Below are positions 3,176 to 54,519 of a DNA stretch of 64,000 nucleotides, one piece after another. The notes below the pieces were generated by a model, which saw only the letters and a program-made list of their open reading frames with translations, was not told the DNA's origin and made no database searches. The position numbers and the translations under genes were made by a program. Origin of the DNA: Candidatus Saccharimonadota bacterium (GTDB lineage Bacteria; Patescibacteriota; Saccharimonadia; UBA4664); NCBI GenBank assembly GCA_019352195.1, contig JACAFG010000005.1:92287-156286 (forward strand), read 5' to 3'. Numbering within the stretch: position 1 is the first letter of the stretch; each line of letters opens with the position of its first letter.

Positions 3176-3188
3176 ATAAGGAACGCTC

Positions 3189-4253: not shown

Positions 4254-4277
4254 AGCCCAAACTGTGGTGGGGCCCTC

Positions 4278-5698: not shown

Positions 5699-5867
5699 GG
5701 CGGAGGACCACTTTATTGGTAATGATCTATGACTGTCCGACTTTAAGAAGCCCACAGCGGTTCTTTTACAACTTGTGACATGGTTCGAATTTCTACATTT
5801 ACCAATGAAAACCAAGGCTTTTAGTCTGGTTTTAAAGCAAATAATAATCCTCACGAAGGAGGCTAAG

Positions 5868-7445
5868 ATGTCCATCAAGACATTTGCTCGTTCTCGTTGG
5901 GGTAAGGTTGCCGCGGCTCTCATCCTCATTGCCGGAATCACGATTCCAGTAACGCAGGTAATGGGCGCCACGGGCACCGATCCTAACTGTCCAAACGACG
6001 GCTACGGCCGTGACTGTAACGATAACTCGCTCATTTATGGTGGCGTTTACACCAAGACTGAGTTCCTTAACCAATTTGACGCTAACAAAGACCGCGTTGG
6101 CCACACTGACCTGCAAGCCATTTATGGCGCCCAGGGTGTGACGCACGCTAACTTTGCCTCGGCCGATACCGTCCCCGGTGTCGTTTACAAAAATGGTGAT
6201 GTTAAAGTTAACGGTGTTACCGTTGCTACCAACACCTGGTCGAGCGGCCGTCAGTACGAGGCTGGATCAATCGCCAAAGACGGCGTTTACTTCCGCCCCG
6301 AACAGGTTGCGTTTATTGCTGACAGCATTCCTGCTTGGATCAACATGAACGGCAAGACGTTTAACTACGCGGTTATCATGTCCTGTGGTAACACGGTTGT
6401 AAGTTCGGCGACGCCCTTTGGCCAGATCTACAAGCGCGTGACTGATGTTACGACAGACCCAACTCACAACTACGCAGCTGACACGAATGCCACTGCTATC
6501 ACCGTTAACCCGGGCGACACGGTTAAATACCAGGTTCGCATCGATAACAACGGTTACGGCGACATGACTAACACGGTTATGACTGACACGTTGCCAACCG
6601 GTGTCGCGCTCTCCAACGGCGGCGATGGCCACCTGGTTGCCAACTTTGGCACCGTTAAGGCCTCGAGCGCGGTTGAAGCCGACATTACCGTTAAGGTGAC
6701 AAAGACAACCGAAGGTTACATCGACAACGAAGCTTGCTTTACCGCCAGCAACGGCCAGTCGGGTTGTGACCACGCGGTTATCCACGTTGTCCCTAAAGCT
6801 ACGCCCACGCCGACTGCTACGCCTACGCCTAGCATGACGCCCACCCCAACACCAAAGCCCACAACGCCAACTCCGACGCCTACGGTCACTCCAACCCCAA
6901 CGCCAACTCCTGTAGAGGAGTTCAGCTGTGGTGGCTTGGCCATTACGCCTAAGAGCGTAGGTTCGCTCGAGTACACCTTTACGATCACTCCCGTCACGAA
7001 GAACGTTACCGTTACTGGTTACATCTACGTGGTAAAGAATGACAAAGGCGTCACGGTAGCTACGCTTACAAGCGGTGCCAATCACAATAGTGTTGGCTAC
7101 ACCTTCCCAAGCGCTGGTAATTACAGCGTAACGGGTCAGGTTGTAACGAACCGTGGTACCACGCCCGTAGTTGAGCTTTGCTCGGCTAATGTGACAGCTG
7201 GCCCAACGGTTACCCCAACTCCTACGCCCACCCCTGGTACACCTACGCCTACCCCAACCCCTTGTACTACGCCTGAAACCGGTACGACTGGTGAAGTTTG
7301 TGGAGCCTCAACTGGCCCTTCAACCTTGCCTGCAACCGGTGGTGCAGCCCTCGGTGGCATTGGCGGCATTGGTGCTATTGGGTACGCCACTCGTGCCTAC
7401 TTGCTCTCTAAGAAGTCACTTATTGACTCTCTGCGCAACAAGTAA
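5868..7445 (+). CDS. LPXTG-anchored cell-surface protein with a Pro/Thr-rich linker
   Basis: GAAGGAGG RBS. N-terminal signal peptide. PT repeats (PTPTATPTPSMTPTPTPKPTTPTPTPT). C-terminal LPATGG followed by a hydrophobic stretch and a KKS tail, the sortase sorting signal. Confidence 0.7.
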   Translation: MSIKTFARSRWGKVAAALILIAGITIPVTQVMGATGTDPNCPNDGYGRDCNDNSLIYGGVYTKTEFLNQFDANKDRVGHTDLQAIYGAQGVTHANFASADTVPGVVYKNGDVKVNGVTVATNTWSSGRQYEAGSIAKDGVYFRPEQVAFIADSIPAWINMNGKTFNYAVIMSCGNTVVSSATPFGQIYKRVTDVTTDPTHNYAADTNATAITVNPGDTVKYQVRIDNNGYGDMTNTVMTDTLPTGVALSNGGDGHLVANFGTVKASSAVEADITVKVTKTTEGYIDNEACFTASNGQSGCDHAVIHVVPKATPTPTATPTPSMTPTPTPKPTTPTPTPTVTPTPTPTPVEEFSCGGLAITPKSVGSLEYTFTITPVTKNVTVTGYIYVVKNDKGVTVATLTSGANHNSVGYTFPSAGNYSVTGQVVTNRGTTPVVELCSANVTAGPTVTPTPTPTPGTPTPTPTPCTTPETGTTGEVCGASTGPSTLPATGGAALGGIGGIGAIGYATRAYLLSKKSLIDSLRNK

Positions 7446-22807: not shown

Positions 22808-23108
22808 GAAATTGAAGATTATCCGGATGTGTTAGCTCATTATAGTCGTCGTCGCTGATTTGGCCAACTGAAGCCAAATACGCCAGATCGGCCACGAAGA
22901 TAGCGCGAATGTCATCATAACGGGGTGATTTCTTGTCCGCCAAAATACGCAAAGTTGCAGTTGAGTCCTTAATAAACTCTTCGAGCTCGTCCTCGTTCAT
23001 CATTTCCCCTTCGGTTTTGTCGGGGTTACTGACGCATCGCGCCGGCGGGTCGACATCGGCGGCCCGATAATCTTCGAGATGCCACGCAAGTTCTGATAAT
23101 GGATTCAT
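22794..23108 (-). CDS. hypothetical acidic protein
   Basis: ORF only; its end overlaps the glyQS start by 14 nt. Confidence 0.3.
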   Translation of the reverse strand: MNPLSELAWHLEDYRAADVDPPARCVSNPDKTEGEMMNEDELEEFIKDSTATLRILADKKSPRYDDIRAIFVADLAYLASVGQISDDDYNELTHPDNLQFHAEI

Positions 23109-23842
23109 AAAGTTGCTCCTAGGGTGCCCGAACGGACGCTGTGGCCGCCGTGGGCGTCATAAAAATCATCGCAGTCGGCCAAACTGCTGGCAGCCATTTC
23201 AGATGCCCCGCCGATACGGGCGATCGTAGCGTATGGATAGTTAAACAGCAAGCGCCACAGTTTTATGGCGGGTTGTGACATCGGTGAAGCGACGGCGCCG
23301 CGGTCATCATCGCAGGTGAGGCCGCCCCGCTCGGCCTCAAACCAGTAACGCGAGTCAGCGTCCGACCGGCCACAGACGAGGCATTGGTCGAGTGACGGCT
23401 GCAGACCCGAAATGGCGAGGAGGCGGAGTTTAAACCATAGCTCGACCAGTGGACCTGACTCCCCTGCTTCGACCGCCCCCAAGGCCATGCGCGTGTGCGC
23501 GTACAGCTCGGGCTGGGGCTCACCAGGCTGGGCAAAGCGGTCCACGAGCGAGGCGATGATAAACGCCAGTCCTAGGCGCTCGTAGTTGGCCGTAAGCTCA
23601 TGCGGATACCACACGAGCCGGGCGGATGTAACTACGTCGAGGTTACGGCCGGTCGCAAGCATCAGCGCTACTTCGCCAAATGGCTCCAGATGACCACCCG
23701 ATTTGCTTTTAACGCGGCGAATACCTTTGGCAACGGCGCTAATCTTGCCATGTTCGGGCGTAATAAAGCGAATAATACGGTCGGCTTCGCCAAAATTGGT
23801 GCGGCTTAGCACGATGCCGGTAGTTTGGTATGTAGCGCCCAC
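23105..23842 (-). CDS. recO: DNA repair protein RecO
   Basis: N-terminal OB fold (GIVLSRTNFGEADRIIRFIT ... GKISAVAKGIRR) and a C-terminal Cys-containing region. GTG start with a TAGGAGGG RBS. Confidence 0.8.
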   Translation of the reverse strand: MGATYQTTGIVLSRTNFGEADRIIRFITPEHGKISAVAKGIRRVKSKSGGHLEPFGEVALMLATGRNLDVVTSARLVWYPHELTANYERLGLAFIIASLVDRFAQPGEPQPELYAHTRMALGAVEAGESGPLVELWFKLRLLAISGLQPSLDQCLVCGRSDADSRYWFEAERGGLTCDDDRGAVASPMSQPAIKLWRLLFNYPYATIARIGGASEMAASSLADCDDFYDAHGGHSVRSGTLGATL

Positions 23843-23896
23843 GCACCCTCCTATCTCAACTTATTATAGCGAGCGGGCGTATAAACGCGAAGCGAC

Positions 23897-23924
23897 CCCG
23901 GTTTCTTGCAAGAAACCGGGGTCG
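23897..23924. terminator. perfect 28-bp palindrome ACCCCGGTTTCTTGCAAGAAACCGGGGT at the boundary between GC-rich island 2 and recO
   Basis: Seen directly. A minus-strand TATAAT -10 for recO lies immediately downstream. Confidence 0.5.
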
Positions 23925-23939
23925 ATCGGACGATGTGGA

Positions 23940-24368
23940 TCAGGCGGAGACGAGCTCCGGAGATGTGACGGGCTCGGTCGTGGCGGTGGTCGGGTCGATC
24001 AGCTGTGGGAAAGCGTTGTCGTCGAACCGAGTGATATAGCGCTTGATGCGCCACGTGGTGGCGACGCCGGGGCGCTCCTCGGTGAAGTCGGTGCCGCCCT
24101 CTTTGAGGGGCAAGACCGTGGTGCCCCAGGCGGCCGCGACGATGGCGGCGAACTCCTTGTCGACGATGATGTAACCGGGGTAGACGGTGTAGTCCCCGAG
24201 GCCGAGGTCGCGCAGGGCCCGGTGACCGGTGCAATCCTGCGGCTGGCATGGGGTGGCCACCGGCAGGCTGGTGAGCTCCGGCTGGCCGAAGGCGGTGCGC
24301 AGCGCGTTGAGGTCGCGGCGCATGCCACGAATGGCGAGAGATGCGGCGGATCTGGTCATGGACAACAT
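23940..24368 (-). CDS. hypothetical protein (GC-rich island 2)
   Basis: ORF in a high-GC segment. The plus-strand RG-rich 282-aa ORF is judged an artefact. No motif recognised. Confidence 0.3.
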   Translation of the reverse strand: MLSMTRSAASLAIRGMRRDLNALRTAFGQPELTSLPVATPCQPQDCTGHRALRDLGLGDYTVYPGYIIVDKEFAAIVAAAWGTTVLPLKEGGTDFTEERPGVATTWRIKRYITRFDDNAFPQLIDPTTATTEPVTSPELVSA

Positions 24369-24456
24369 CCTTCCAACTCGGGGTGGAAATGCGGGCTCGC
24401 AAGTATGAGCTTATGGTTGTTATACGACACTGGTGTCGAAATAACAACCATAACGG

Positions 24457-24882
24457 CTAGGCGGCAGAGGGCGCTCGGTTTTCGTCGAAACCGGGCAGCA
24501 GTCCGTCGTCGAAGTTTTCAACGAACAGACTCACGTCTCGGGGCAGCTTGAAGTGAACTTTGCGGCACTGGGGGCCGTCGGCGCACTTCAACTGCTTGCT
24601 GCCCCAGCTTCGTCGTACCGCGGCAGCGTTACTGGGGTCAAGCGCGATGTCGCTCCGGGTGATGTAGAACTCACCCAAGCCGTCACAGCGCAACGTGCGG
24701 TGCACGGGGCAAATGTCGGCGCCGCGGATCGCGCCTTTGGACATGGTGCGGCGGGGCTTGGCCCCGAGAGCGGCGCGCAGCAGATTGATCTGGGTGAGCG
24801 CTGCGCGGGCGACCGCGGCTTGGTTGATCTGGATCACGCTGGTAACGGGAAGATTGACGTCAGAGGAAGATTTCATCAGCAT
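24457..24882 (-). CDS. hypothetical protein (GC-rich island 2)
   Basis: ORF with an AAAGGG RBS. Several Cys residues. No motif recognised. Confidence 0.3.
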   Translation of the reverse strand: MLMKSSSDVNLPVTSVIQINQAAVARAALTQINLLRAALGAKPRRTMSKGAIRGADICPVHRTLRCDGLGEFYITRSDIALDPSNAAAVRRSWGSKQLKCADGPQCRKVHFKLPRDVSLFVENFDDGLLPGFDENRAPSAA

Positions 24883-25393
24883 GAGCTGACCCTTTCGAGA
24901 TCTGGTCGGGGGAATTCGAACTTGGATTGTTGATACCTGGGTTGCCCTGTTTGGTAAGCCAGGTTTCAGCGCGCACTGAGTTCGGCAAAGGGACTGGCAA
25001 CCAGTTCCGGAATGCCGTCCGCGCTGTCGAAGCGCTTGATGAAACGAATGACGGCAGGCGGGTTGCGGAGCTTGACGCGTAAGCCATGCGACGTCTCGAA
25101 GAACTTCGGCACACGCTTAATCCTGGGAGGACATCAACGAGCGTGTTGTGTACCGCGCAAATGTTTTAGCGCGCAGGAATGCCTGGTCGGGGGGTCTTCA
25201 GTGGACTACCTCCCAGCGCCTGACGCAGGCGGTTGCATGCTTCGAGCATGCCGGCGGTGAGTTCGGCATTAGTACGAGATTTGAACATGACGGGCCCCAA
25301 TTGTGTCGATGTACTGGTTTGGTGGAAAAACAAAACCTGAACTAGTTATACGGTATGTGGGCTAATGAGGCAAGATTTTCTAGTGGCTATGTC

Positions 25394-33165: not shown

Positions 33166-33630
33166 TCAGGCGGCGGTGCTGGCCGCGAATCGGCCGTGGA
33201 AAGTGAGGTAGCGGTTTTGGACGGCCGCGTCGATGTAATCCTGGAGTCGGCCTGGATCCTGCCGGAGTTCCCTGAGTTGGGCGGAACCGATCAGGATGAT
33301 CGGCCACTTGGGCATGGTTTCCGCAATCCGGCCAATCTTGGCTTGCTTGAGACCCTCGCGGCGGACTTCCGTGACTTCGATGTAGAGCTTGAGCCCCGGT
33401 AGGTAGAAATCGGGCGCCATGCAAGTGATCCGCCCACTGGCCAGTCGAATGAAGAACCGGTGTGGCTCGCCTTCGTGCAGATGGCCAAGATCGTCCAGCC
33501 ATTCGGAGACCTCGATTTCTGCTCCTTGGAGCGGGCTTCTGGGGATCCGATTGGGCTCGCGGTGAGGCACGAAGTGCTCGAATGCCTTGGGAGAGCGGTA
33601 CGACTTGATTCGATTACGCTTGCTCATCAC
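33166..33630 (-). CDS. hypothetical protein, possibly PD-(D/E)XK (DUF559-like) nuclease fold (GC-rich island 3)
   Basis: PDFYLPGLKLYIEVTE ... K arrangement resembles a PD ... (D/E)xK. Weak call. Confidence 0.25.
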   Translation of the reverse strand: MMSKRNRIKSYRSPKAFEHFVPHREPNRIPRSPLQGAEIEVSEWLDDLGHLHEGEPHRFFIRLASGRITCMAPDFYLPGLKLYIEVTEVRREGLKQAKIGRIAETMPKWPIILIGSAQLRELRQDPGRLQDYIDAAVQNRYLTFHGRFAASTAA

Positions 33631-33945
33631 ACTGCTACTTTCGGGGACGAGTGGTCCAGGCGGCTTGCTCGGCGACCGGGCGGGGCGCCAGGTGCGACGG
33701 CGTGCCTGTGGGTCGGTGCAGCTTGCGGCCGCGTCGTTGCGGCAGCTGGGTCGGCTTGCGAGACGACCTGCGTGAGACAGGGTTGAACATTTTGATGCCC
33801 CTCCGTCTTTGGGTTATCAAAAAACCGCCTGGTCGGGATGACTAGGCGGTGGTGCGAGCAGGCAGCTTCACATCGATCGGTCGGAAGACGTCACGGCTGG
33901 TGGCTGCATACCTCATAGTCATAACTATAGAAAAATGATAGGACT

Positions 33946-40893: not shown

Positions 40894-41808
40894 CTAGAGT
40901 TTGAGATATCGGCTCATAGCTAAAATTGATGAGACGGCGCCAATAATAATTCCGAGCAGCAGTTCACCGCCTAAGATCACAAACGGATAGGATTGGAAGA
41001 AGCTGATGGTAGAACCAAAGTCGATATAACTAGCCACCTTGGGCGCACTACTCAAGAGAACTAGATACGAGAAGGTTACGGCAACGATGGCCGCGATAAT
41101 TCCGTAAAGGGCCGCCTCAAAAATAAACGGTCCGCGAATAAACCATTTGGTGGCACCGACAAGCTTCATGATTTCGATTTCATCGCGCCGGGTAAAAATG
41201 GCCATTCTGATGGTGTTGAAAATGATCAGTGTCGAAATGACGACAAAGACAATACTGGCTGCTAAGCCCGCAGTTTTGAAGAAGTTAGCAAAGTGAACAA
41301 TACGGTCGATGGTTTCTTTGCGGCCGCCCGTGTAGCTTGGTGGGGCGGTGGGATCGAGCAGACTTTGGTTGGCCTGCTGACTCACGACTGCTTCGATAGC
41401 GTCGAGATGTTTGGGATCGATGGCTTTTACCTCAATTGAAGACGGCAAAACATTGCCAGCTGTATCGAGCGCCTGGATGAGCGATGGCTTATCTTTGTTT
41501 TGGTTCTTATAGTTAGCAACTGCCTGATCAGGGCTGACATACATGAGGCTCGCGACGTTACCGCTGCTTTTGAGGGCGGCTTCGAAAGCAGCCACCTGAT
41601 CGGGCGTCGTGTTATTGTTGAGGAAAATCGAGACGTCAATTTTATCGGTCACCCCTTTGATGGTAGCGGTAAGGGCGAGGCTTGAGATAAACGACACAAT
41701 GACGATGATAAGGGTCACCGTCATAACGGCGGTAGCAGCAGTTGAGAGCCAGGCGTTACGCAGAAAGTTGCGGATGCCGCCGTGAAGTATTCGCCAAAAT
41801 TGCAGCAT
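40894..41808 (-). CDS. ftsX: cell division ABC transporter permease FtsX
   Basis: Four-TM FtsX topology with a large extracytoplasmic loop. Overlaps the ftsE stop. Confidence 0.85.
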   Translation of the reverse strand: MLQFWRILHGGIRNFLRNAWLSTAATAVMTVTLIIVIVSFISSLALTATIKGVTDKIDVSIFLNNNTTPDQVAAFEAALKSSGNVASLMYVSPDQAVANYKNQNKDKPSLIQALDTAGNVLPSSIEVKAIDPKHLDAIEAVVSQQANQSLLDPTAPPSYTGGRKETIDRIVHFANFFKTAGLAASIVFVVISTLIIFNTIRMAIFTRRDEIEIMKLVGATKWFIRGPFIFEAALYGIIAAIVAVTFSYLVLLSSAPKVASYIDFGSTISFFQSYPFVILGGELLLGIIIGAVSSILAMSRYLKL

Positions 41809-42551
41809 TAGTTTTGTGCCTCAACCCCAGTGGCAATGCCCTTGGTAGCGCCCTTGAGGGTCGTTGGGTTTTCTAAGGTGTAGCGTCCCTGTTCATCATC
41901 GCGGATGATGCGGCCGCGGTTGATCGTGATAACACGTCGTTTGAGGGCGTTTACAATTTCTTTGTTGTGCGTAGTGAGCAGCACGGTGGTACCAAAACGG
42001 TTAATTTTGAGCAAAAGCTCGATAATTTGCCAGGCATTGCCGGGGTCGAGGTTACCGGTTGGTTCGTCGGCGATAAGAATTTTGGGCTGGCGAATGAGCG
42101 CCCGGGCAATGGCGACACGCTGACGCTCACCACCTGACAGTTCGTGCGGGTACATGTTTTGCTTGGCCGATAGGCCAACGAGGGTGAGCATCTTGGGTAC
42201 AGCGCGCTTAATTTCGCGCTGGCGGGCCCCCGAAACTTCGAGCGCAAAGGCGACATTTTCACCTACGCGGCGGTTGGGTAGGAGTTTAAAATCTTGAAAC
42301 ACCACCCCAATGCGACGGCGCACGAGCGGCACGTCTTTCGCGGTAATCGTGTCGTAATCAAGTCCACCGACAATGATTTTGCCTGAACTATGCGTTTCTT
42401 CGCGCGTCAGAAGCTTGATGAGCGTACTCTTGCCGGCGCCACTGGAACCCACAATAGTCACAAATTCTTTAGGCTCAATATGAAGATTGAGACCCGATAA
42501 CGCCGTTTGGCCGTTCGGATATACTTTGGTAACTCGATCGAATAGAATCAT
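41808..42551 (-). CDS. ftsE: cell division ABC transporter ATP-binding protein FtsE
   Basis: Walker A GSSGAGKST. ABC signature LSGGERQRVAIARAL. Walker B ILIADEPT. About 247 aa. Confidence 0.9.
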   Translation of the reverse strand: MILFDRVTKVYPNGQTALSGLNLHIEPKEFVTIVGSSGAGKSTLIKLLTREETHSSGKIIVGGLDYDTITAKDVPLVRRRIGVVFQDFKLLPNRRVGENVAFALEVSGARQREIKRAVPKMLTLVGLSAKQNMYPHELSGGERQRVAIARALIRQPKILIADEPTGNLDPGNAWQIIELLLKINRFGTTVLLTTHNKEIVNALKRRVITINRGRIIRDDEQGRYTLENPTTLKGATKGIATGVEAQN

Positions 42552-42606
42552 TACCGTCTCATCTTATCATAGAGTGAACTTGGTTGTGGTTAGGATAGGC
42601 GGTACA

Positions 42607-42645
42607 TGATTGAGGACGATCCTGGTGACAAGATCGTCCTCAATT
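42607..42645. promoter_or_regulatory. perfect 13-bp inverted repeat ATTGAGGACGATC-(10 nt)-GATCGTCCTCAAT at the junction between the ftsE upstream region and GC-rich island 5
   Basis: Seen directly. Lies about 60 bp upstream of the ftsE start codon. Confidence 0.4.
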
Positions 42646-43040
42646 GTCGTGAGAGACGGGCGATGATTTTGCGGCTTATTTCATTAGCCGCGGGGTGGCC
42701 TCAACTGGCTGGGACGGGCCCGGTTGGGCGGCGGACCGATGCTGGCCATGGCTTCGAGGGCACGGTTACCTCGATGGTTGCGTTGGGCGCCGGTGTGTCG
42801 AGTAATCGATTTCCGGCCGGCTCGGCCAAATAAGGTAGGCCGTCGGAGTTCTGGCCGGCGATGCCGGCGAAGGTCAGATGACGCAAGAAGCTGCCGACTT
42901 CGACGGCGAACTGGCTGGCGGTCGTGTCAGTCCCCTCGTCCCCAATTGCTACCAGAAACTTCGTCCGGCATTTGCGGCAGCGCCGATCGACTGATGGCAC
43001 ACGTATGCCGCACGCCCCACACGTGTAGGGACCGCCAACA

Positions 43041-43156
43041 CGAAATTAAGCGCGCTGTGCCCAAGATGCTCACCCTCGTTGGCCTATCGGCCAAGCAAAA
43101 CATGTACCCGCACGAACTGTCAGGTGGTGAGCGTCAGCGTGTCGCCATTGCCCGGG
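43041..43156 (+). repeat. 116-bp inverted duplicate (115/116 identical) of an internal ftsE segment (42101-42216, encoding EIKRAVPKMLTLVGLSAKQNMYPHELSGGERQRVAIAR)
   Basis: Direct sequence comparison. The single difference is a synonymous T/C (GTA vs GTG, Val). Confidence 0.85.
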
Positions 43157-43200
43157 GCAATTATTATCCCAAACATGTCATACTAGTTAAAGGTAGCCCA

Positions 43201-43569
43201 ATGAGCGAATACCCAAACCATATACGAGCGCAGTTTGATGAGGCGGTAACGTCGAGTCCCGACGCGCTGCTGTGTATTCTCAACCCGGCGGGCCAGCTGC
43301 TCGCGGTCTCGCCTTCAGTCGAGCCGATTCATGGCTATCTCCCGTCTGAAGTGGTTGGGACTAACTTTTCCATCTACTTTGATGCCGATGACGTAAATCA
43401 TCTAAGGTTAGTTATCCAAGATTGTATTCTAACCGGGCAATCCATCGAAGCAAGCCGCCGCGTTAAGCACAAAACTGGCGCCTACCGGCGAATGCGTGGG
43501 GCTGCCACCAAACTTGAGGATGATGCTACAGGTGATGCCTATATTCTCTCAATTGCTCGGCCGGTTTAG
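43201..43569 (+). CDS. small stand-alone PAS-domain protein
   Basis: About 122 aa. A PAS-like fold is inferred from ... LCILNPAGQLLAVSPSVEPIHGYLPSEVVGTNFSIYFDADD ... The ORF track fuses it to upstream junk (42724..). Confidence 0.45.
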   Translation: MSEYPNHIRAQFDEAVTSSPDALLCILNPAGQLLAVSPSVEPIHGYLPSEVVGTNFSIYFDADDVNHLRLVIQDCILTGQSIEASRRVKHKTGAYRRMRGAATKLEDDATGDAYILSIARPV

Positions 43570-43682
43570 CTGGCGTTCGCAGCAAAAAACTACGCGAACT
43601 ACCCGGCCAAGTGGTACAAATAAGCATAATTGTCAGCAAAAAGTAACATTATTAGCCATATTGCAGTTATCAGGTACAAATT

Positions 43683-43713
43683 CATTGACACAAATGTCAA
43701 TGTGTCCTAACAT
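43683..43713 (+). promoter_or_regulatory. promoter with a palindromic operator: CATTGACA-caaa-TGTCAATG overlapping a TTGACA -35; TAACAT -10 lies 17 nt downstream
   Basis: Lies in a locally AT-rich spacer inside the GC-rich island, 75 nt upstream of the TasA-like gene. Confidence 0.45.
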
Positions 43714-43787
43714 ATCTTGGTGTCGTCTATCCAGGCGATCGTTCCACCACGTGTTCGAGGAATCGAGCACGCGACAAAAGGAGTCCC

Positions 43788-44462
43788 ATGTCCAGTTCCA
43801 AGCCCAGCGTGAACCCCGATGCCAAGCCCAAGCGGAAGCGTCGCGGTCTCGTAGCCCTCTTCTGTTCCGTCTTGCTCTGCGGCGGCCTCTTCGTGTTCCT
43901 CGGTTAGGCCAGCACCGGTGCCTACTTCAGCGACACCAAGGCCGGCACCGTCTCCGGTACCGTCGGATCCATCAAGATCACGGGTACCGGCGGCTCGGGC
44001 GCCGACAATCTCTCGGTCAGCTTCGATCGGCTGCTGCCGGGTGAGAACCAGTCGGTGACGACGTCATGGACGAACACCGGCCTCAACAAAGAAGACGTCT
44101 TCGTGGTGTTCTCGAACCCTGACGCGCTGCACGCGCTGAACAACCTCGGGACCTACGGTGAGGTCCACATCGTGGGCAACAACGGACCGGTCTTCGACAG
44201 CGCCAACCTCAACGACAATTCGGCGTCATGTGTCACGTTCTCGCCGTCGGGATGTTGGCCGGTCGCCAAGAGCTACAAGATCGGCACCAACATCACCCCC
44301 GGAGGCACCGGATCCTGGACGTTCACCTTCGGGTACGCCTCCAAGCTGTCGACTCAGTCCGCCGCCGGCGGTGGCGATTGGAACTCCTACCCCTTGGGTG
44401 GGCCGACCAACTCCGGTCTTCCGTACCAGCTGGTCGCGGTCCAGCCGGGCCAGACCCCGTAG
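43788..44462 (+). pseudogene. TasA/camelysin-family secreted protein with a SipW-cognate-class signal peptide, interrupted by a single in-frame TAG at 43905-43907
   Basis: AAAGGAG RBS. MSSSKPSVNPDAKPKRKRRGLVALFCSVLLCGGLFVFLG-TAG-ASTGAYFSDTKAGTVSG ... (the AxFSD(T)E motif). Same frame throughout. Confidence 0.6.
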
Positions 44463-44520
44463 TACCACTTAGGTGGCGCGGGCAACGTCTGTCCGCGCCA
44501 CCTAGGTCCTACCACAAGGA

Positions 44521-45042
44521 GTGGACATAGTGCCAAAATGGCTCAGTATCACCGTCAGTGCCCTCGTCTTTGCTGCCATGGTGGTAGTAAGCCTGTCGCT
44601 TCTGATGTCACACCACCTCTATGTGGTGCGCACGGGCTCAATGGGAAACACCTACCCGCCCAAGACGCTCGTCGTCGTCAAGGTTGGTGAGTACCATGTG
44701 GGACAAGTTATCTCGTTCCGCGAGCATGGCGATATCACCACCCACCGCCTCCTCGGCTTCAACGCCGACGGTACGCTCATCACCAAAGGCGACGCCAACG
44801 ACACTCCCGATCCCTGGACTCTCCACCGCTCCGACATTATCGGTGGCGTCACTGGCTCGGTTCGCGGCCTCGGCTACTGGTTCATCTATGCGAAGAACCC
44901 CTACGGCCTCGGCTCCATGGTTTGCTTAGTCCTCGCGATCTGGCTGTCCATCAAACTTTACCGCGAGATGACTCCTGAGACCGACGCAGAGTCCGACCCG
45001 CCCGACAATTCGCTCGAGGATCTCATCCTGAGCTCCTCCTGA
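44521..45042 (+). CDS. sipW: SipW-type (archaeal/ER-type, S26B) signal peptidase I
   Basis: N-terminal TM helix. VVRTGSMGNTYPPKTLVVV, then VGQVISFREHGDITTHRL and ITKGDANDTPDPW, compared from memory with B. subtilis SipW (SGSSMEP ... VTHRVIEV ... ITKGDNN ... D.W). C-terminal TM helix. GTG start with an AAGGAG RBS. Confidence 0.75.
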   Translation: MDIVPKWLSITVSALVFAAMVVVSLSLLMSHHLYVVRTGSMGNTYPPKTLVVVKVGEYHVGQVISFREHGDITTHRLLGFNADGTLITKGDANDTPDPWTLHRSDIIGGVTGSVRGLGYWFIYAKNPYGLGSMVCLVLAIWLSIKLYREMTPETDAESDPPDNSLEDLILSSS

Positions 45043-45105
45043 CCACCAGCCCTCGTCCGCAACTAGTTTTGCGCGGACGGGGGCTTCGTCTATTTTGCAG
45101 TTAGG

Positions 45106-45795
45106 CTACCACAACCAAAGTAAAATGTCTGCACCCCCAGAAGGAGTGCAGGCATTTGATTTTCGGACCTGACAAGACCAGTCGGTCATGCAGATATGCG
45201 GCACGCCAGCGATAATCGCACGCTTGGGGTTACCAGCCGCCGTCCACTCGTCGTGGGTGATGAGGATGGAAACGCTGCCCGCCTGGGCATTACAATCTGG
45301 AACTTCCCAGACGGGGGCGCTTACCTTGGCAATGACAAACCCATCGAGAAAGCGTCGCACCGGCGCGTAGCCGGAAGCGGCCCAGTCAACTCGTTGGATG
45401 TAGTGGTACTGATCGACGCCCGGCGAGCTGAAGAACACCTCGGCCGTCGATGTCATGTACCGCAGCACGTCGCTGTCGGGAATCCATCTCACTGTGTGAA
45501 TCGTCGGGTTACCCCAAGCCACCCGTTGGGCGTGGGACATATATGTCGCATGGCCACCGACCACCCGGTAGGCCCGTGCGTTCCACGAGTAGCGGACGTA
45601 GGATCCGGACGGCGTTGCAGCTTTGACAGTCTGAGCAAAGACAACTGACACAGTGGCAGGGCTGGCAGCCACGGGTGTGGCCGCCGAAGCCGTGCCAACC
45701 GTAGCAAAAACCACGATGCCCAGTGCGAGGATGAGACTGCTCGCCAACGTGACGAGGCGGTTCCTCCAGGGTATGGGAGTACGAACAGAAGACAT
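45106..45795 (-). CDS. secreted hypothetical protein (signal peptide; Cys/Trp-rich)
   Basis: N-terminal signal peptide MSSVRTPIPWRNRLVTLASSLILALGIVVFATVGTASA. No motif recognised. Confidence 0.4.
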   Translation of the reverse strand: MSSVRTPIPWRNRLVTLASSLILALGIVVFATVGTASAATPVAASPATVSVVFAQTVKAATPSGSYVRYSWNARAYRVVGGHATYMSHAQRVAWGNPTIHTVRWIPDSDVLRYMTSTAEVFFSSPGVDQYHYIQRVDWAASGYAPVRRFLDGFVIAKVSAPVWEVPDCNAQAGSVSILITHDEWTAAGNPKRAIIAGVPHICMTDWSCQVRKSNACTPSGGADILLWLW

Positions 45796-45834
45796 GATTG
45801 CCTTTCTTGAGGCAGTCGGGAACCTCCATTCCGT

Positions 45835-46840
45835 TTTGAATCAGGACACTCTCCCGCAAACTGACACCATGAAGAAAGCACCCAAACTGTCGGATGCGGA
45901 GCGGTCAGAAATTGGCACACTTTTAAGTAAAAAAGTATTTACTTCGGGACATTGCCCGGGTATTGGGGCGCAGCCCCAATACCGTGTCCGACGAGATTAA
46001 GCGCAATAGTGTGTGGGATCGGTATGAGGTCGAGTCGGCGAAACGCAAAAGCTACTATGTGCGTAAATATGCCAAGTATCAGGGCAAGAAGATTCAGGAA
46101 AATATGGATCTGCGGTGGTACATCATCGTGCGGCTTCAGGCGCATTGGAACCCAGATGAAATTGCTGGAGCCATAAGCAGCTGTTTTACGCCTCCAAAAC
46201 TGCCATTTACGACTGGCTACGTTCCGAATGGGGCCAGCGTTACTGCCAGTTTCTGGACTCACAGCGACATCGCCCGCGCAAGCGCCAGAAGAAGGCGGTT
46301 CGTCCCATGATTACAGATAGGGTGAGCATTGTAGAACGGCCTTTGGGCGCCACAAATCGCACCCGGTATGGCCACTGGGAGGGTGACACGGTTGTGTCCG
46401 GAAAACGCACCGGTAGCACGGCGGCGTTGGTGGTGACCGTGGAGCGCAAAACACGGCTCGTGGCCGCGAGAACAATACCCGACTTGAGGCCGGCGAGCTT
46501 TAATAGCGCCATCCAGGACGTCCAGACTGGCGTAACAAAGATGCGCAGTCTGAGTTTAGACAACGGCATTGAGAACCGTTGGCACGGCCAGCTGAGCGTC
46601 CCAGCTTACTTGTGTGCTCCGTACTCCAGTTGGCAAAAAGGCAGTGTAGAAAATGCTAACAAAATGATACGGCGGTACCTGCCCAAGGGCCTGGATCTAG
46701 TCACCGTGACACCGACTCGCTTACAAGATATTATTTAGATAATTAGCAACAAACCCAGGAGGATCCTGGGGTATAAATCGGCCACACAAGTGGCCACAGA
46801 GAAAGGAATATTACGAGAGCAAGTGTCCTGATTGGGGGCT
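45835..46840 (+). mobile_element. IS30-family insertion sequence remnant (~1.0 kb) with imperfect terminal inverted repeats sharing AATCAGGACACT
   Basis: IR core at 45839-45850 and its reverse complement at 46822-46833. A transposase ORF lies between them. Confidence 0.65.
45869..46738 (+). pseudogene. IS30-family DDE transposase, split across three frames
   Basis: HTH segment LGRSPNTVSDEIKRN. WNPDEIAG. TAIYDWL ... HWEGDTV ... ERKTR ... DNGIEN ... SWQKGSVENANKMIRRYLPKG. Frame change at the A6 run near 45925-45935 and a second change near 46165-46175. Confidence 0.7.
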
Positions 46841-47174
46841 GAATGCAGCTTTTTTCGGGTGATATTGCAGCAACTACGTCGGCGTAGTCACTACGACTTA
46901 CAACCATGTCTTCTCCTCGGGCTAGGGACGGATTTGACGACACTTTGTCGTCAATGGGAACTGGGACGAGCGGGACTCTGTCTGGTGTCGGGGCACGTTG
47001 GGTGGACCCATTCTGCCGGGATGATGGGCGGCAGGCCGAGCACGTCGCGCAGGGGGCGGTCGATTCCTGTCCAGTCGGACAGTTTGGGACGGGACATGAA
47101 GACTCCAAGAGGTCGAAGGACGGCGATCAACGTGGAACTAGCGATATTATGAAATAACATATTAATAATTACAA

Positions 47175-48272
47175 CTAATCGTCGCTACCGGAGCCTATTT
47201 GGCCGTTGAGATAAGCTTCAATAAACAAATCGAGATTGCCGTCTAAGACGCCGGCGGCATCATTCGTTTCGGCCCCGGTGCGGACATCTTTGACCTTAGT
47301 GTAGGGATGGAGCACATAATTGCGGATTTGTTGGCCCCACTCGGCGGCTTTATCGGCACCGCGCAATTGGCCAAGTTCGGCGGCCTGTTCCGCTTCGAGG
47401 CGCGCCGCTAAACGGGCTTTCAGCACGGCCATGGCTTTGTCTTTGTTTTGTAGCTGTGAGCGCTCGTTTTGAATCGCCACCACCGTATTGGTCGGTATGT
47501 GGGTGATGCGGACAGCTGAATCAGTCGTGTTAACGCTTTGGCCGCCTTTGCCGCTCGAGCGATACACATCGATCCGCAAGTCTTTGGGGTCGAGTTCGAT
47601 ATCGGCGGTGCTGCGGTCGAGTTGAGGTAGTACCTCAACCAGCGCAAATGAAGTTTGGCGTAAATCGGCCGAATTAAATGGGCTTTGGCGAACTAGACGA
47701 TGAACGCCGGCTTCGCCTTTGAGTTTGCCAAAGGCAAACGGCCCGGAGATTTCAATAGTGGCGCTCTTAATTCCCGCTTCCTCACCAGGCGAGGTTGATA
47801 GAATTTCGGCGCTAAAATTCTGCGAGGTCGCCCATCGCACGTACATGCGTTGGAGCATTTCGGTCCAGTCTTGCGCGTCGGTACCGCCGGTACCGGCATG
47901 GAGCTCGATAATGGCGCCGGTCCGATCATGCGGGCCTGATAGCTTGAGCTCAAATTCGCGTGCTTCATAGTCGGTTTTGAGGCGCGAGTAGGTAGCTTCG
48001 GCGGTTTCGGCGTAGCCCGGGATATCGGTGACGCCAAATAATTCATCACTGACTTGGCTTTCGAGCGAGCGCCAACTTTCGACATGTTTCGTGAGTTCGG
48101 CGAGGCGCTGCGAAGTTTTAGCCGCGGCTTGAGGATCATTCCAAAAATCGGGCGCTTGGGTGGCCGCGCTGAGCTTGGCGATCTCGGTAGCGTCGGCAGG
48201 TATACCAAGTTTAGCGATGGCGGATTGAATTCGCTCCAACAGATCAGTGTAGCGGTGAATAAGGTCTTGCAT
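47175..48272 (-). CDS. prfB: peptide chain release factor 2 (uninterrupted ORF; no programmed +1 frameshift site)
   Basis: SPF tripeptide motif and GGQ (SSGKGGQSVNTTDSAVRITH). 365 aa in one frame. Confidence 0.88.
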   Translation of the reverse strand: MQDLIHRYTDLLERIQSAIAKLGIPADATEIAKLSAATQAPDFWNDPQAAAKTSQRLAELTKHVESWRSLESQVSDELFGVTDIPGYAETAEATYSRLKTDYEAREFELKLSGPHDRTGAIIELHAGTGGTDAQDWTEMLQRMYVRWATSQNFSAEILSTSPGEEAGIKSATIEISGPFAFGKLKGEAGVHRLVRQSPFNSADLRQTSFALVEVLPQLDRSTADIELDPKDLRIDVYRSSGKGGQSVNTTDSAVRITHIPTNTVVAIQNERSQLQNKDKAMAVLKARLAARLEAEQAAELGQLRGADKAAEWGQQIRNYVLHPYTKVKDVRTGAETNDAAGVLDGNLDLFIEAYLNGQIGSGSDD

Positions 48273-53499: not shown

Positions 53500-54207
53500 T
53501 CAGCCCACGTTGGAATGATCGTCGATGAAGTTCGCCGACGCGGCTTTGCGCTGGGCGGTCACTATGGGCGTGAGCGTGCCAACCAAAAACGAGACGGTGG
53601 TGGCCGTGGGCAACTCGACACCCAGTTGGCGCGCGTAGTTGGCCGGGTTACTTCCGAGTATGATGCGCGCGCCGGACTGGCGGATGGTTTCGAGCAGCGC
53701 ATCGAGCGTTGAGCGCTCTAAGACGTTGGTGACAACATCGAAGGTAGCCGCGCTGACATCGTCGCCACGGTAGCCGACTGCGATGGGTCCGCTGTGGCGG
53801 TCGAGCGCCTCATGGACGAGCTTTATGACATGGTCGACGACGCTCTTTTTGAACTGGTGGATGATTCTCGGTCGGCTGGCAAACAAGTAGTTTTCCAGAC
53901 TGGCGCAGAGGTGGGCCAACTGGATGCGCTCGTACGCCGATTTGGCCGGATCGATCTGAAACGGCGCTTGGTCGTAACGCCGCAACTGGAGTAACCCGTG
54001 CGAGTTGAGATCTGCGTGGTCGTCGCTGGTTTCGATCTCCCAGCAGACGGTTTGAACCATGAGAGGTCTGCGGAGAGACCGCGGCACTTGATAGGCCAAG
54101 GCGGACCGGAGGTTGAACAATCCGGCGGCAAGGGCCTCACCGGAGGTGAGGCACTGCTCGACTTCGGTGATAAGCCGCGTGAGGATGGGAGCGTTCACTA
54201 AGGTCAT
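53500..54207 (-). CDS. hypothetical protein (GC-rich island 6)
   Basis: 235-aa ORF with no recognisable motif. Co-directional with the small membrane protein, 23 bp apart. Confidence 0.3.
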   Translation of the reverse strand: MTLVNAPILTRLITEVEQCLTSGEALAAGLFNLRSALAYQVPRSLRRPLMVQTVCWEIETSDDHADLNSHGLLQLRRYDQAPFQIDPAKSAYERIQLAHLCASLENYLFASRPRIIHQFKKSVVDHVIKLVHEALDRHSGPIAVGYRGDDVSAATFDVVTNVLERSTLDALLETIRQSGARIILGSNPANYARQLGVELPTATTVSFLVGTLTPIVTAQRKAASANFIDDHSNVG

Positions 54208-54519
54208 TTCAAATTTCTTTCGCTCGGGTACTCAGATGAGCACGGGTCGGGTAAAGTATTTATACCATCGGAGCCTACAACAAGCAATAGACAGACTCGT
54301 TTAAACATGCTACAATAGTTTCAATTGTTGATCGTGAACCGCTTTGATCCGCTGAAAGTGAATCGTTCATGACGGCGATTCATAACACGATCCGTTGCCT
54401 GGCGCGCCAAGCGTCAGCAGACATCATTCCACCAGCGAGCCGTAACTGGCTTGCCCGAGGCAGAAAATCCTTAGTGGACTGTATCCAGGTGACAGGTTCT
54501 AACAACTTAAGGAGTCCCT

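What the first reader, a model, noticed from the sequence alone, without database searches (positions are those of the whole stretch)
42560..47160. GC-rich island upstream of ftsE carrying a TasA-like fibre protein with its dedicated SipW-type signal peptidase
A ~4.6 kb visibly GC-rich block sits between ftsE and prfB. It encodes a TasA/camelysin-family protein whose signal peptide carries the SipW-cognate AxFSDT motif (43788..44462). A 12-bp-stem hairpin with no T-run lies between the two genes (44467-44512), reminiscent of operon-internal attenuators that set the structural-protein to peptidase ratio. Immediately after comes an archaeal/ER-type signal peptidase whose motifs match SipW closely from memory (44521..45042). 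The island also holds a small PAS protein, a secreted Cys/Trp-rich protein and a dead IS30 element. TasA/SipW pairs build biofilm-matrix fibres in Firmicutes and occur in other Gram-positives. Finding one on a compositionally foreign island in what looks like a reduced-genome, episymbiont-type organism suggests horizontal acquisition of an adhesion or matrix module, possibly from a high-GC actinobacterial host. A palindromic operator overlapping the -35 (CATTGACAcaaaTGTCAATG, 43683-43702) suggests repressor control analogous to SinR on tapA-sipW-tasA.
Basis: partly seen in the sequence, partly recalled or inferred. Interest (0 to 1): 0.8.

Follow-up and report, generated by a model that had tools for sequence, protein, structure and literature searches.

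The report
Acquired TasA-like fibre cassette, now broken

Summary
The window comes from a Candidatus Saccharibacteria MAG (GCA_017884045.1). A 4.6-kb insertion splits the prfB–ftsE junction. That junction is a 39–160 nt gap in the four closest relatives, and none of 80 related loci has the module within 10 kb.

Only the 1.3-kb core is clearly foreign. GC3 is 0.85 for the TasA-like gene and 0.76 for the peptidase gene, against 0.57–0.62 for native genes. The rest is a mosaic:
- a 129-nt inverted copy of the genome's own ftsE
- a small PAS gene with native composition
- a near-orphan secreted protein
- an IS30 remnant spread over three reading frames

The fibre gene carries an in-frame TAG at codon 40 (43905–43907), inside the signal peptide. 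TAG is the commonest stop codon in this window, and a second assembly shows the same base.

The protein fails the Pfam camelysin and NCBIfam TasA cut-offs. Its predicted fold, however, has the TasA fibre as its only significant Foldseek match. The peptidase is intact and of the S26B (archaeal/SipW) type.

The hairpin between the two genes is real (18 bp) and is present in 55 of 56 homologous cassettes. The closest intact copies are in other Saccharibacteria, inside a clade that also holds high-GC hosts. The operator idea is untested.

The parts
41808..42551 (-). ftsE (native left flank)
   Evidence: ABC_tran E 1.5e-35. 90% identical to FtsE of the closest relative L005. GC3 0.57.
42552..42608 (-). 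Remnant of the native ftsE upstream spacer, with a -10-like TATGATAAGAT
   Evidence: Read directly and compared with the 39-160 nt prfB-ftsE spacers of L005-L008. Inferred.
42609..42644 (.). Perfect 16-bp hairpin at the ftsE-side edge of the insertion
   Evidence: Inverted repeat I8. Fold -27.3 kcal/mol, z -6.4. Function unknown; it may insulate ftsE from transcription out of the insertion.
42645..43027 (.). Unassigned GC-rich segment (GC about 0.60), no recognisable gene
   Evidence: No Pfam or NCBIfam hit for its ORFs. Frame analysis inconclusive.
43028..43156 (+). Inverted duplicate of an internal ftsE piece (copy of 42101-42229), 97% identical
   Evidence: the repeat finder I1. 97% to this genome's own ftsE but 77% to L005's. 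It encodes REIKRAV...LSGGERQRVAIAR, in frame with the PAS ORF.
43201..43569 (+). Small PAS-domain protein with native-like composition (annotated from 43066 as 167 aa)
   Evidence: PAS_3 E 8.6e-9; TIGR00229 E 7.7e-13. GC3 0.53. Absent from all other cassette loci.
43683..43713 (+). Promoter-like site TTGACA-17-TAACAT (43685-43713), overlapped by the exact palindrome CATTGACA-N4-TGTCAATG (43683-43702)
   Evidence: The -35/-10 layout aligns with strong promoters in L003, L085 and L086. The palindrome itself is not conserved.
43722..43739 (+). Small stem-loop at the start of the 5' leader (7-bp stem, ATCC loop)
   Evidence: Same position and (G/A)TCC loop in L003, L085 and L087; a similar hairpin in L086. 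One G-C to A-T compensatory change. Limited to the closest clade (7 of 71 loci, no better than the reverse-strand control).
43788..44462 (+). TasA-superfamily fibre-subunit gene, inactivated by an in-frame TAG at 43905-43907 (codon 40)
44467..44507 (+). Intercistronic hairpin: 18-bp stem, 5-nt loop, no U-tract
   Evidence: A long hairpin sits at the same place in 55 of 56 non-redundant homologous cassettes (median z -4.8), with unrelated sequences.
44530..45042 (+). S26B (archaeal/SipW-type) signal peptidase I, intact. SD AAGGAG at 44516-44521; the ORF is open from 44521.
   Evidence: TIGR02228 51.0 bits (cut-off 51.85). Homologues score 53-60. Invariant G39-S40-M41, H75-R76, G90-D91-A92 and D97 are kept. 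GC3 0.76.
45048..45085 (.). 13-bp GC-rich hairpin between the convergent genes; likely a bidirectional terminator
   Evidence: Fold -28.5 kcal/mol (+ strand) and -30.1 kcal/mol (- strand), z about -3.4. Followed by CUUCGUCUAUUUUG on the + strand.
45106..45795 (-). 229-aa secreted protein of unknown function (signal peptide ...GTASA/A; Cys/Trp-rich C-terminus)
   Evidence: No Pfam or NCBIfam hit. Only 12 clusters at E <= 1e-3 among 1.84 billion representatives, best non-self 32-36% identity. GC3 0.67. Not linked to the cassette elsewhere.
45821..46851 (+). Degraded IS30-family element: imperfect 30-nt terminal inverted repeats (45821-45850 / 46822-46851) and a transposase split over three frames
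   Evidence: Inverted repeat I3. Stitched translation scores NF033563 156 bits against a cut-off of 80. tblastn pieces at 45869-45979, 45963-46307 and 46304-46828. The independent Logan contig ends at 45848.
46852..47145 (.). Unassigned segment
   Evidence: No family hits for any ORF.
47146..47174 (-). AT-rich native spacer just after the prfB stop, with a promoter-like TTGTAA-17-CATAAT
   Evidence: Inferred to be the prfB-proximal half of the ancestral prfB-ftsE spacer.
47175..48272 (-). prfB (native right flank)
   Evidence: PCRF E 5.6e-48 and RF-1 E 8.8e-38. GC3 0.58.

Best explanation
WHAT IT IS. A foreign two-gene cassette has been inserted into the otherwise tight prfB-ftsE junction of a Saccharibacteria chromosome, together with other material. 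That material is an IS30 element, an orphan secreted-protein gene, a PAS gene and a duplicated scrap of ftsE.

CASSETTE LAYOUT. Sigma-70-type promoter, then a leader with a 5' stem-loop, then the TasA-superfamily subunit gene, then a long GC-rich intercistronic hairpin, then a Shine-Dalgarno sequence and GTG start for an S26B (SipW/archaeal-type) signal peptidase, then a terminator.

HOW INTACT COPIES PROBABLY WORK (inferred by analogy with B. subtilis TasA/SipW and archaeal AbpA).
1. The pre-protein is exported by Sec.
2. The dedicated peptidase cleaves it at the conserved TGA|YFSD site.
3. This frees an N-terminal strand on an approximately 180-aa beta-sandwich.
4. That strand inserts into the next subunit (donor-strand exchange) to build an extracellular fibre.
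5. The hairpin after the subunit gene probably acts as a partial terminator or a 3' stabiliser, so subunit mRNA greatly exceeds peptidase mRNA.

IN THIS GENOME. A TAG at codon 40 ends translation within the signal peptide's hydrophobic core. No exportable subunit can be made, so the module is a recent pseudogene, while the peptidase gene is still intact.

SHOWN: the insertion, the foreign codon composition, the stop codon, the fold similarity, the conserved gene pairing and the conserved hairpin.
INFERRED: cleavage site, fibre formation, hairpin function, loss of function.
For: INSERTION
- prfB is followed directly by ftsE in the 4 closest relatives (gaps 39-160 nt; FtsE up to 90% identical).
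- No TasA-like or SipW-like gene lies within 10 kb in any of 80 related loci.

FOREIGN COMPOSITION
- GC3 is 0.85 and 0.76 against a native median of 0.59.

STOP CODON
- In-frame TAG at 43905-43907.
- The same base appears in the Logan assembly of SRR11551193, 100% identical over 43127-45848.
- TAG ends 23 of 49 long ORFs in the window.
- No tRNA gene in the window.
- The public annotation keeps only a 135-aa fragment.

RECENT INACTIVATION
- The window copy keeps all 32 family-invariant residues in a 65-sequence alignment.
- There are no frameshifts.

FAMILY
- 264 homologues, full length 205-235 aa.
- The TasA-like to SipW-like gene order occurs in 65 of 86 loci.
- The fold model (pLDDT 79, pTM 0.76) has residues 1-13 at low confidence, as expected for a free donor strand.
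- The TasA fibre 8aur is the sole Foldseek hit at E <= 0.001 (1.9e-5).
- Peptidase_M73 is the only Pfam family hit by any member: 9 of 65, best E 8.3e-5.

PEPTIDASE
-.

HAIRPIN
-.

PUBLISHED MECHANISM OF TasA, SipW AND AbpA
- PMC9674648 and PMC9245690.
Against: - The stop codon rests on one read set. Both assemblies come from SRR11551193, so a consensus error or a minority or majority allele cannot be excluded.
- Sequence-level membership in TasA/camelysin fails every curated threshold.
- Most of the intercistronic hairpins lack a U-tract, so their role is conjecture.
- The insertion junctions themselves are covered only by the MAG contig, not by the independent contig.
Confidence: 0.7

Rival explanations
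1. The cassette works. The TAG is a sequencing or consensus error, or one allele in the population, and this organism does make and export the TasA-like fibre subunit.
For: Everything else is pristine. All 32 family-invariant residues are kept and there are no frameshifts. The peptidase is intact with its catalytic residues. The promoter, leader hairpin, SD and intercistronic hairpin are all in place.
Against: Two assemblers agree on the base, although they used the same reads. TAG is the commonest genuine stop codon here. A single-base substitution is not the usual Illumina assembly error. A second labelled Saccharibacteria MAG also has a broken TasA-like gene next to an intact peptidase.
Confidence: 0.15
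2. The protein is a secreted beta-sandwich protein processed by a dedicated S26B peptidase, but it is not a polymerising fibre. It could be a monomeric cell-surface, cell-wall-binding or camelysin-like protein.
Confidence: 0.2
3. The block is native or ancestral. Its higher GC only reflects the Gly/Ala/Pro/Thr-rich composition of the proteins.
For: Cassette GC stays at 0.55-0.70 whatever the host background, which ranges from 0.38 to 0.73. That pattern suggests a composition constraint on the gene itself.
Against: The excess is at third codon positions (0.85 against GC1 0.52 and GC2 0.53), not at positions set by the amino acids. The site is empty in the closest relatives and the genes are absent from 80 related loci. 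Other Saccharibacteria carry the cassette at unrelated sites.
Confidence: 0.03
4. The block is an assembly or binning chimera: actinobacterial DNA joined into a Saccharibacteria contig.
For: The contig comes from a metagenome. The NCBI record has an N-gap about 4 kb away. The junctions are not covered by the independent Logan contig.
Against: Both flanks lie on one 220-kb contig and match the conserved Saccharibacteria order CHAP-ftsX-ftsE / prfB-PBP. The independent contig physically links the cassette to the native-composition PAS gene and to 30 nt of the ftsE-derived repeat. That repeat differs from ftsE at 4 of 129 positions, so it is a real diverged copy. The nearest cassette relatives are themselves in Saccharibacteria.
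Confidence: 0.04

Closest known systems
Bacillus subtilis tapA-sipW-tasA operon (TasA fibre, PDB 8AUR/5OF2; SipW S26B peptidase)
   Same: A secreted jelly-roll or beta-sandwich subunit is encoded next to a dedicated archaeal/ER-type signal peptidase. The signal peptide ends in a conserved aromatic-F-(S/N)-D motif. The best structural match of the model is the TasA fibre. [quoted passage not shown]
   Different: - Gene order is subunit first, then peptidase.
- There is no TapA-like nucleator or anchor.
- The mature protein is about 180 aa, against about 233 aa for TasA.
- A long intercistronic hairpin is a family-wide feature.
- Pfam PF12389 and NCBIfam NF046066 thresholds are not reached.
- There is no SinR-type regulator nearby.
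- Here the subunit gene is truncated.
Archaeal TasA-like donor-strand filaments: AbpA bundling pili (7UEG), Sulfolobus 0406 threads (7PNB), CanA/CanX cannulae, Natrinema Tafi pili
   Different: The archaeal systems use the generic peptidase; no dedicated gene lies nearby. Sequence identity is 4-16%. The hosts here are bacteria.
NCBIfam TIGR04088 'SipW-dependent-type signal peptide' proteins of Gram-positive bacteria
   Same: The N-terminal motif is of the same type. One JGI homologue is annotated with it (P0018). Three of 65 family members hit the model weakly.
   Different: The best score is 17.1 bits against a cut-off of 19. The window protein has no hit. The mature domain belongs to no curated family.
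Genomic islets carried with IS elements in Saccharibacteria (for example the acquired arginine deiminase system, PMC8764695)
   Same: A reduced episymbiont genome has gained an accessory surface or metabolic module by horizontal transfer.
   Different: Here the acquired module is already inactivated. The known attachment organelles of Saccharibacteria are type IV pili (PMC9894109, PMC11623550), not TasA-like fibres.

Membership tests
Pfam PF12389 Peptidase_M73 (camelysin/TasA) | HMM score at or above the gathering threshold (22.5 bits) | tested here: not met
   Window protein: no hit at E <= 0.1. Closest intact homologue P0003: 21.7 bits, residues 10-85 only. Nine of 65 members hit at E <= 0.01, best 8.3e-5, and it is the only Pfam family seen.
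NCBIfam NF046066 biofilm matrix protein TasA (equivalog) | Score at or above 450 bits | tested here: not met
   20.5 bits for P0003. Two of 65 members hit weakly. A profile of the family finds no TasA chain among PDB sequences even at E <= 10.
TasA superfamily (structural) | Jelly-roll or beta-sandwich fold whose closest solved relative is TasA or AbpA | tested here: met
TasA superfamily (functional) | Polymerisation by N-terminal donor-strand exchange | not testable with these tools
   Indirect only. The mature N-terminus is conserved and is modelled at pLDDT < 50 over residues 1-13.
TasA/SipW-type system | A dedicated S26B peptidase gene adjacent to the subunit gene | tested here: met
   Adjacent in the window (59-67 nt spacer, depending on which GTG starts the peptidase) and in 65 of 86 homologous loci. 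Most exceptions are contig ends.
TIGR04088 SipW-dependent-type signal peptide | Score at or above 19 bits on the signal-peptide model | tested here: inconclusive
   The window protein, queried with X at the stop, gives no hit. The best homologue scores 17.1 bits, and 3 of 65 members hit at E <= 0.01. The motif TGAYFSDT is plain by eye.
Signal peptidase I, S26B / TIGR02228 (archaeal-type, includes SipW) | Score at or above 51.85 bits, plus the catalytic Ser/His and the GDxN box | tested here: inconclusive
   The window scores 51.0 bits (E 1.4e-13), 0.85 bits short. Orthologues in L003, L086 and L087 score 53.4, 59.7 and 53.6. S40, H75 and D91 are invariant and present. The Bacillus SipW equivalog NF046067 is not met (34 against 190).
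IS30 family insertion sequence | NF033563 transposase at or above 80 bits; a single intact ORF; terminal inverted repeats | tested here: not met
   Homology is met (156 bits on a stitched translation). The ORF is split over three frames. The candidate 30-nt inverted repeats are only 73% complementary. It is an IS30 remnant, not an active element.
Horizontally acquired genomic islet | Empty site in relatives, atypical composition, and a mobility gene | tested here: met
   Empty site. GC3 outlier for the cassette only. IS30 remnant present. No flanking direct repeats found. No copy on known plasmids or phages.

The most novel reading that the evidence does not exclude
The unannotated 205-235 aa family is a minimal, two-gene TasA-like fibre system of Actinomycetota. 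It has been exchanged repeatedly, and in both directions, between actinobacterial hosts and their Saccharibacteria episymbionts. Episymbionts with intact copies may use host-type fibres to anchor in, or co-polymerise with, the host's matrix. The conserved intercistronic hairpin would then set the subunit-to-peptidase ratio.

The evidence does not exclude this:
- Low- and mid-GC hosts fall in at least four separate places in the tree. One actinobacterial copy is a low-GC patch beside an IS481 fragment.
- A second Saccharibacterium in the same sample carries an intact pair.
Probability: 0.12. Interest if true: 0.7.

Novelty: new member of a known kind. Interest (0 to 1): 0.38.

Why it matters
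For this window, little: the acquired module is apparently dead, so it says nothing about how this organism attaches to anything. It corrects a tempting reading.

Three wider points may be useful.
1. A sizeable family (264 hits; most named ones are Actinomycetota) is annotated almost everywhere as 'hypothetical protein'. It can be assigned to the TasA superfamily by fold and by its obligate S26B partner. This suggests TasA-like fibres are common in Actinobacteria.
2. The cassette carries a structurally conserved but sequence-variable hairpin between the subunit and peptidase genes. That is a testable device for differential expression.
3. The cassette's scattered presence in Saccharibacteria, still with high-GC codon usage, is a clean marker of gene flow between episymbionts and high-GC bacteria. 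Actinobacteria are the known hosts.

Tried and rejected
- Recoding of TAG. Rejected: TAG ends 23 of 49 long ORFs, the window has no tRNA gene, and there is no Rfam element in 42000-47600.
- Sequence-level link to TasA through a family profile against all PDB chains. Nothing found, even at E <= 10.
- AlphaFold-database fold search (afdb50). The library was unavailable.
- Plasmid or phage vehicle for the cassette. No tblastn match in 72,556 plasmids or 50,697 phages.
- Identity of the secreted 229-aa protein. No family was found and it is a near-orphan. Scans of its few relatives gave only noise.
- Identity of the edge segments 42645-43027 and 46852-47145. No hits.
- The palindrome as a conserved operator. 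It is absent from the homologous promoters and has no second copy in the window.
- The 5' leader hairpin as a family-wide element. It is restricted to the closest clade (7 of 71 loci, against 6 in the reverse-strand control).
- Other SipW-type substrates in the window. None found by motif scan.
- Other IS30 copies in the window. None.
- Literature on TasA or SipW in Saccharibacteria, and on this MAG. Nothing relevant.

Full report
SOURCE AND LAYOUT

The peptidase protein is found, identical apart from its start, on NCBI contig JABBYD010000014.1 of GCA_017884045.1. The record is labelled Candidatus Saccharibacteria bacterium, locus tags HJC99. The window GC is 0.540.

The finding lies between ftsE (41808-42551, minus strand) and prfB (47175-48272, minus strand). 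Both were confirmed by Pfam.

THE KEY CORRECTION

The 'TasA-like' ORF 43788-44462 is not open. Its translation reads MSSSKPSVNPDAKPKRKRRGLVALFCSVLLCGGLFVFLG*ASTGAYFSDT..., with TAG at 43905-43907.
- The stop sits in the hydrophobic core of the signal peptide, six codons before the conserved TGAYFSD motif. In 19 aligned homologues that position is a variable small residue.
- The public annotation keeps only a 135-aa fragment from GTG 44055 (P0001).
- TAG is the most frequent stop codon of long ORFs in this window, 23 of 49.
- There is no tRNA gene in the window and no Rfam element nearby.
- An independent Logan assembly of run SRR11551193 is 100% identical over 43127-45848, including the TAG. 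It uses the same reads, so it excludes an assembler artefact but not a read-level or population effect.
- The rest of the gene is undamaged. It keeps all 32 residues that are invariant in a 65-sequence alignment.

The simplest reading is a very recent nonsense mutation.

IS IT TasA-LIKE?

By curated sequence models, no.
- There is no Pfam or NCBIfam TasA/camelysin hit for the window protein.
- A family profile finds no TasA chain among all PDB sequences.

The only families that any member touches are nevertheless the expected ones.
- Peptidase_M73: 9 of 65 members, best E 8.3e-5. The closest intact homologue scores 21.7 bits against a cut-off of 22.5.
- TasA equivalog and TIGR04088: a few weak hits.

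The fold evidence is more positive.
- An AlphaFold2 model of the mature part (pLDDT 79, pTM 0.76) is a beta-sandwich whose first 13 residues are unplaced.
- Foldseek against the PDB returns one match with E <= 0.001: the cryo-EM TasA fibre 8aur (E 1.9e-5, probability 1.0, TMq 0.45).

I therefore place the protein in the TasA structural superfamily with moderate confidence, and not in the Pfam camelysin family. Fibre formation by donor-strand exchange is shown for TasA and AbpA (PMC9674648, PMC9245690). For this protein it is an inference.

THE PEPTIDASE

The downstream ORF is an intact S26B-type signal peptidase.
- TIGR02228 scores 51.0 bits (E 1.4e-13) against a cut-off of 51.85. Its orthologues in three related cassettes pass at 53-60 bits.
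- It keeps the invariant GSM, HR and GDA boxes and both terminal hydrophobic segments.
- Its real start is probably GTG 44530, preceded by AAGGAG at 44516-44521. This matches the annotated 170-aa product and the same SD-N7/8-GTG layout in L003, L085 and L086.

THE CASSETTE IS A CONSERVED UNIT WITH A CONSERVED HAIRPIN

I collected 86 loci that encode relatives of the subunit.
- The SipW-like gene follows directly in 65 of them. Most of the others end too soon to tell.
- The window hairpin has an 18-bp stem (44467-44507), -39.8 kcal/mol, z -5.7.
- In 56 non-redundant spacers, 55 contain an uninterrupted stem of at least 8 bp, commonly 14-22 bp, just after the subunit stop codon. Median z is -4.8, and 91% are below -2. 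The sequences are unrelated.
- Most have no U-tract.

I interpret it as a partial terminator or a 3' stabiliser that raises subunit mRNA over peptidase mRNA, and this is untested.

In the closest clade, the promoter (perfect TTGACA-17-TATAAT in L003) and a small leader stem-loop with a (G/A)TCC loop are also conserved, with one compensatory change. That element is not family-wide.

WAS IT ACQUIRED?

Yes.
- A scan of one genome per species with PrfB returned 80 loci, mostly Saccharibacteria.
- In the four closest, prfB is followed by ftsE after 39-160 nt (L005-L008; FtsE 66-90% identical).
- No locus has a TasA-like, SipW-like, PAS, secreted-protein or IS30 match within 10 kb.
- The window still has recognisable halves of the old spacer at each edge.
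- Composition agrees, but only for part of the block.

| Gene or segment | GC3 |
|---|---|
| TasA-like subunit | 0.85 |
| SipW-like peptidase | 0.76 |
| Secreted 229-aa protein | 0.67 |
| ftsX, ftsE, prfB, PBP | 0.57-0.62 |
| PAS gene | 0.53 |
| IS30 pieces | 0.61-0.63 |

(All values.)

Bulk GC of the whole block is only 0.567 against 0.541. 'GC-rich island' therefore overstates it.

FROM WHOM?

- Named homologues are largely Microbacteriaceae (Cryobacterium, Glaciihabitans, Amnibacterium), Terrabacter and Gaiellaceae.
- The closest intact copies (62-68% identity) sit on contigs of 47-53% GC.
  - L003 is a Saccharibacterium: its pyruvate kinase is 85% identical to labelled Saccharibacteria.
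  - L086 comes from the same sample as the window, and its NusG is 60% identical to a Saccharibacteria NusG.
  - A labelled Saccharibacteria MAG (L088) has a SipW-like gene preceded by a TasA-like gene split over three frames.
- In a bootstrapped neighbour-joining tree, the window copy groups with L003 and L085 (75%). That trio lies inside a ten-member clade (71%) that also holds L086 and five hosts of 62-70% GC.
- Other low-GC hosts fall elsewhere in the tree.
- Cassette GC stays near 0.55-0.70 across backgrounds of 0.38-0.73. In one actinobacterial contig (L087) the cassette is a low-GC patch beside an IS481 fragment.

So the module moves between high-GC bacteria and Saccharibacteria more than once. 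The immediate donor of this copy could equally have been another Saccharibacterium. No copy was found on known plasmids or phages.

THE REST OF THE BLOCK

- A 129-nt piece of this genome's own ftsE (42101-42229) is repeated in inverted orientation at 43028-43156. It is 97% identical to that ftsE, against 77% to L005's. It is in frame with the PAS ORF, so the annotated 167-aa PAS protein begins inside ftsE-derived sequence.
- The IS30 remnant (45821-46851) has imperfect 30-nt ends and a transposase that needs three frames. The independent contig breaks at its edge.
- The secreted 229-aa protein is nearly an orphan.
- Two edge segments are unassigned.
- The palindrome at the -35 is exact. It is not conserved, it is unique in the window, and it lies within what chance allows. 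No repressor gene is present.

VERDICT

The central gene is broken, family membership is only at superfamily level, and the 'island' is a mosaic. This is a decayed member of a known kind of system.

The more interesting by-products are at family level: an unannotated TasA-like fibre family with an obligate S26B partner, a conserved intercistronic hairpin, and evidence of exchange with episymbionts.

Noticed in passing
window 42101-42229 and 43028-43156: A 129-nt inverted duplicate of an internal ftsE fragment (97% identical) lies inside the insertion, in frame with the PAS ORF. The publicly annotated 167-aa PAS protein (43066-43569) therefore starts with ftsE-derived residues, including the ABC signature LSGGERQRV. 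How the copy arose is unexplained; IS-mediated rearrangement is one possibility.
   Followed up: partly
L011, L014, L015, L017, L022, L023, L039, L040, L048, L054, L057, L062 (gap between prfB and ftsE): In other Saccharibacteria the same prfB-ftsE gap holds unrelated cargo of 0.7-3 kb: two prepilin genes (L011), a LemA+TPM pair (L017, L039, L040, L057), an MscS-like channel (L015) and small Clp_N-like proteins. The junction looks like a recurrent variable slot.
   Followed up: partly
window 3180-5369; also 53500-54231, 33166-33813 and 23000-25000: Other compositionally odd patches. 3180-5369 has GC 0.64-0.70 and GC3 up to 0.91, and encodes Pro/Ala-rich membrane or repeat proteins. 53500-54231 has GC3 0.76. 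These may be further acquisitions.
   Followed up: no
L087 8001-9237 (contig_29557, GC 0.69): In a high-GC, presumably actinobacterial contig, the same cassette is a low-GC patch (0.55; subunit GC3 0.58) next to an IS481-type fragment. This suggests transfer from a lower-GC donor into an actinobacterium. In the neighbour-joining tree its nearest neighbour is the mid-GC L086, but bootstrap support is only 34%.
   Followed up: partly
L088/L089 5465-5892 (GCA_037975565.1 / GCA_037200465.1): A labelled Saccharibacteria MAG has a TasA-like gene split over three reading frames upstream of an intact SipW-like gene. The same contig also shows a split BipA, so assembly error is possible.
   Followed up: partly
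L086 8001-9222 (Logan SRR11551193_14357): A second mid-GC organism in the same sequencing run as the window carries an intact TasA-like plus SipW-like pair at a different locus. The subunit is about 60% identical to the window's, and the organism's NusG is 60% identical to a Saccharibacteria NusG.
   Followed up: partly
P0249: A pyruvate kinase labelled Streptomyces caniscabiei is 83% identical to a Saccharibacteria enzyme and lies on a 957,675-bp contig. That is the size of a whole Saccharibacteria genome, so an epibiont genome may be hidden in a Streptomyces assembly.
   Followed up: no
window 38693/38694 versus L001 3962-4164: The NCBI record has 10 N plus 193 nt at this point that the window lacks. 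This is an assembly discrepancy about 4 kb from the finding.
   Followed up: partly
window 42609-42644: A perfect 16-bp hairpin (z -6.4) sits at the ftsE-side edge of the insertion, just upstream of the remnant ftsE promoter.
   Followed up: partly
window 5775-7445: A 556-aa surface protein with Thr/Pro-rich linkers and a C-terminal LPATGG sortase-type motif.
   Followed up: no
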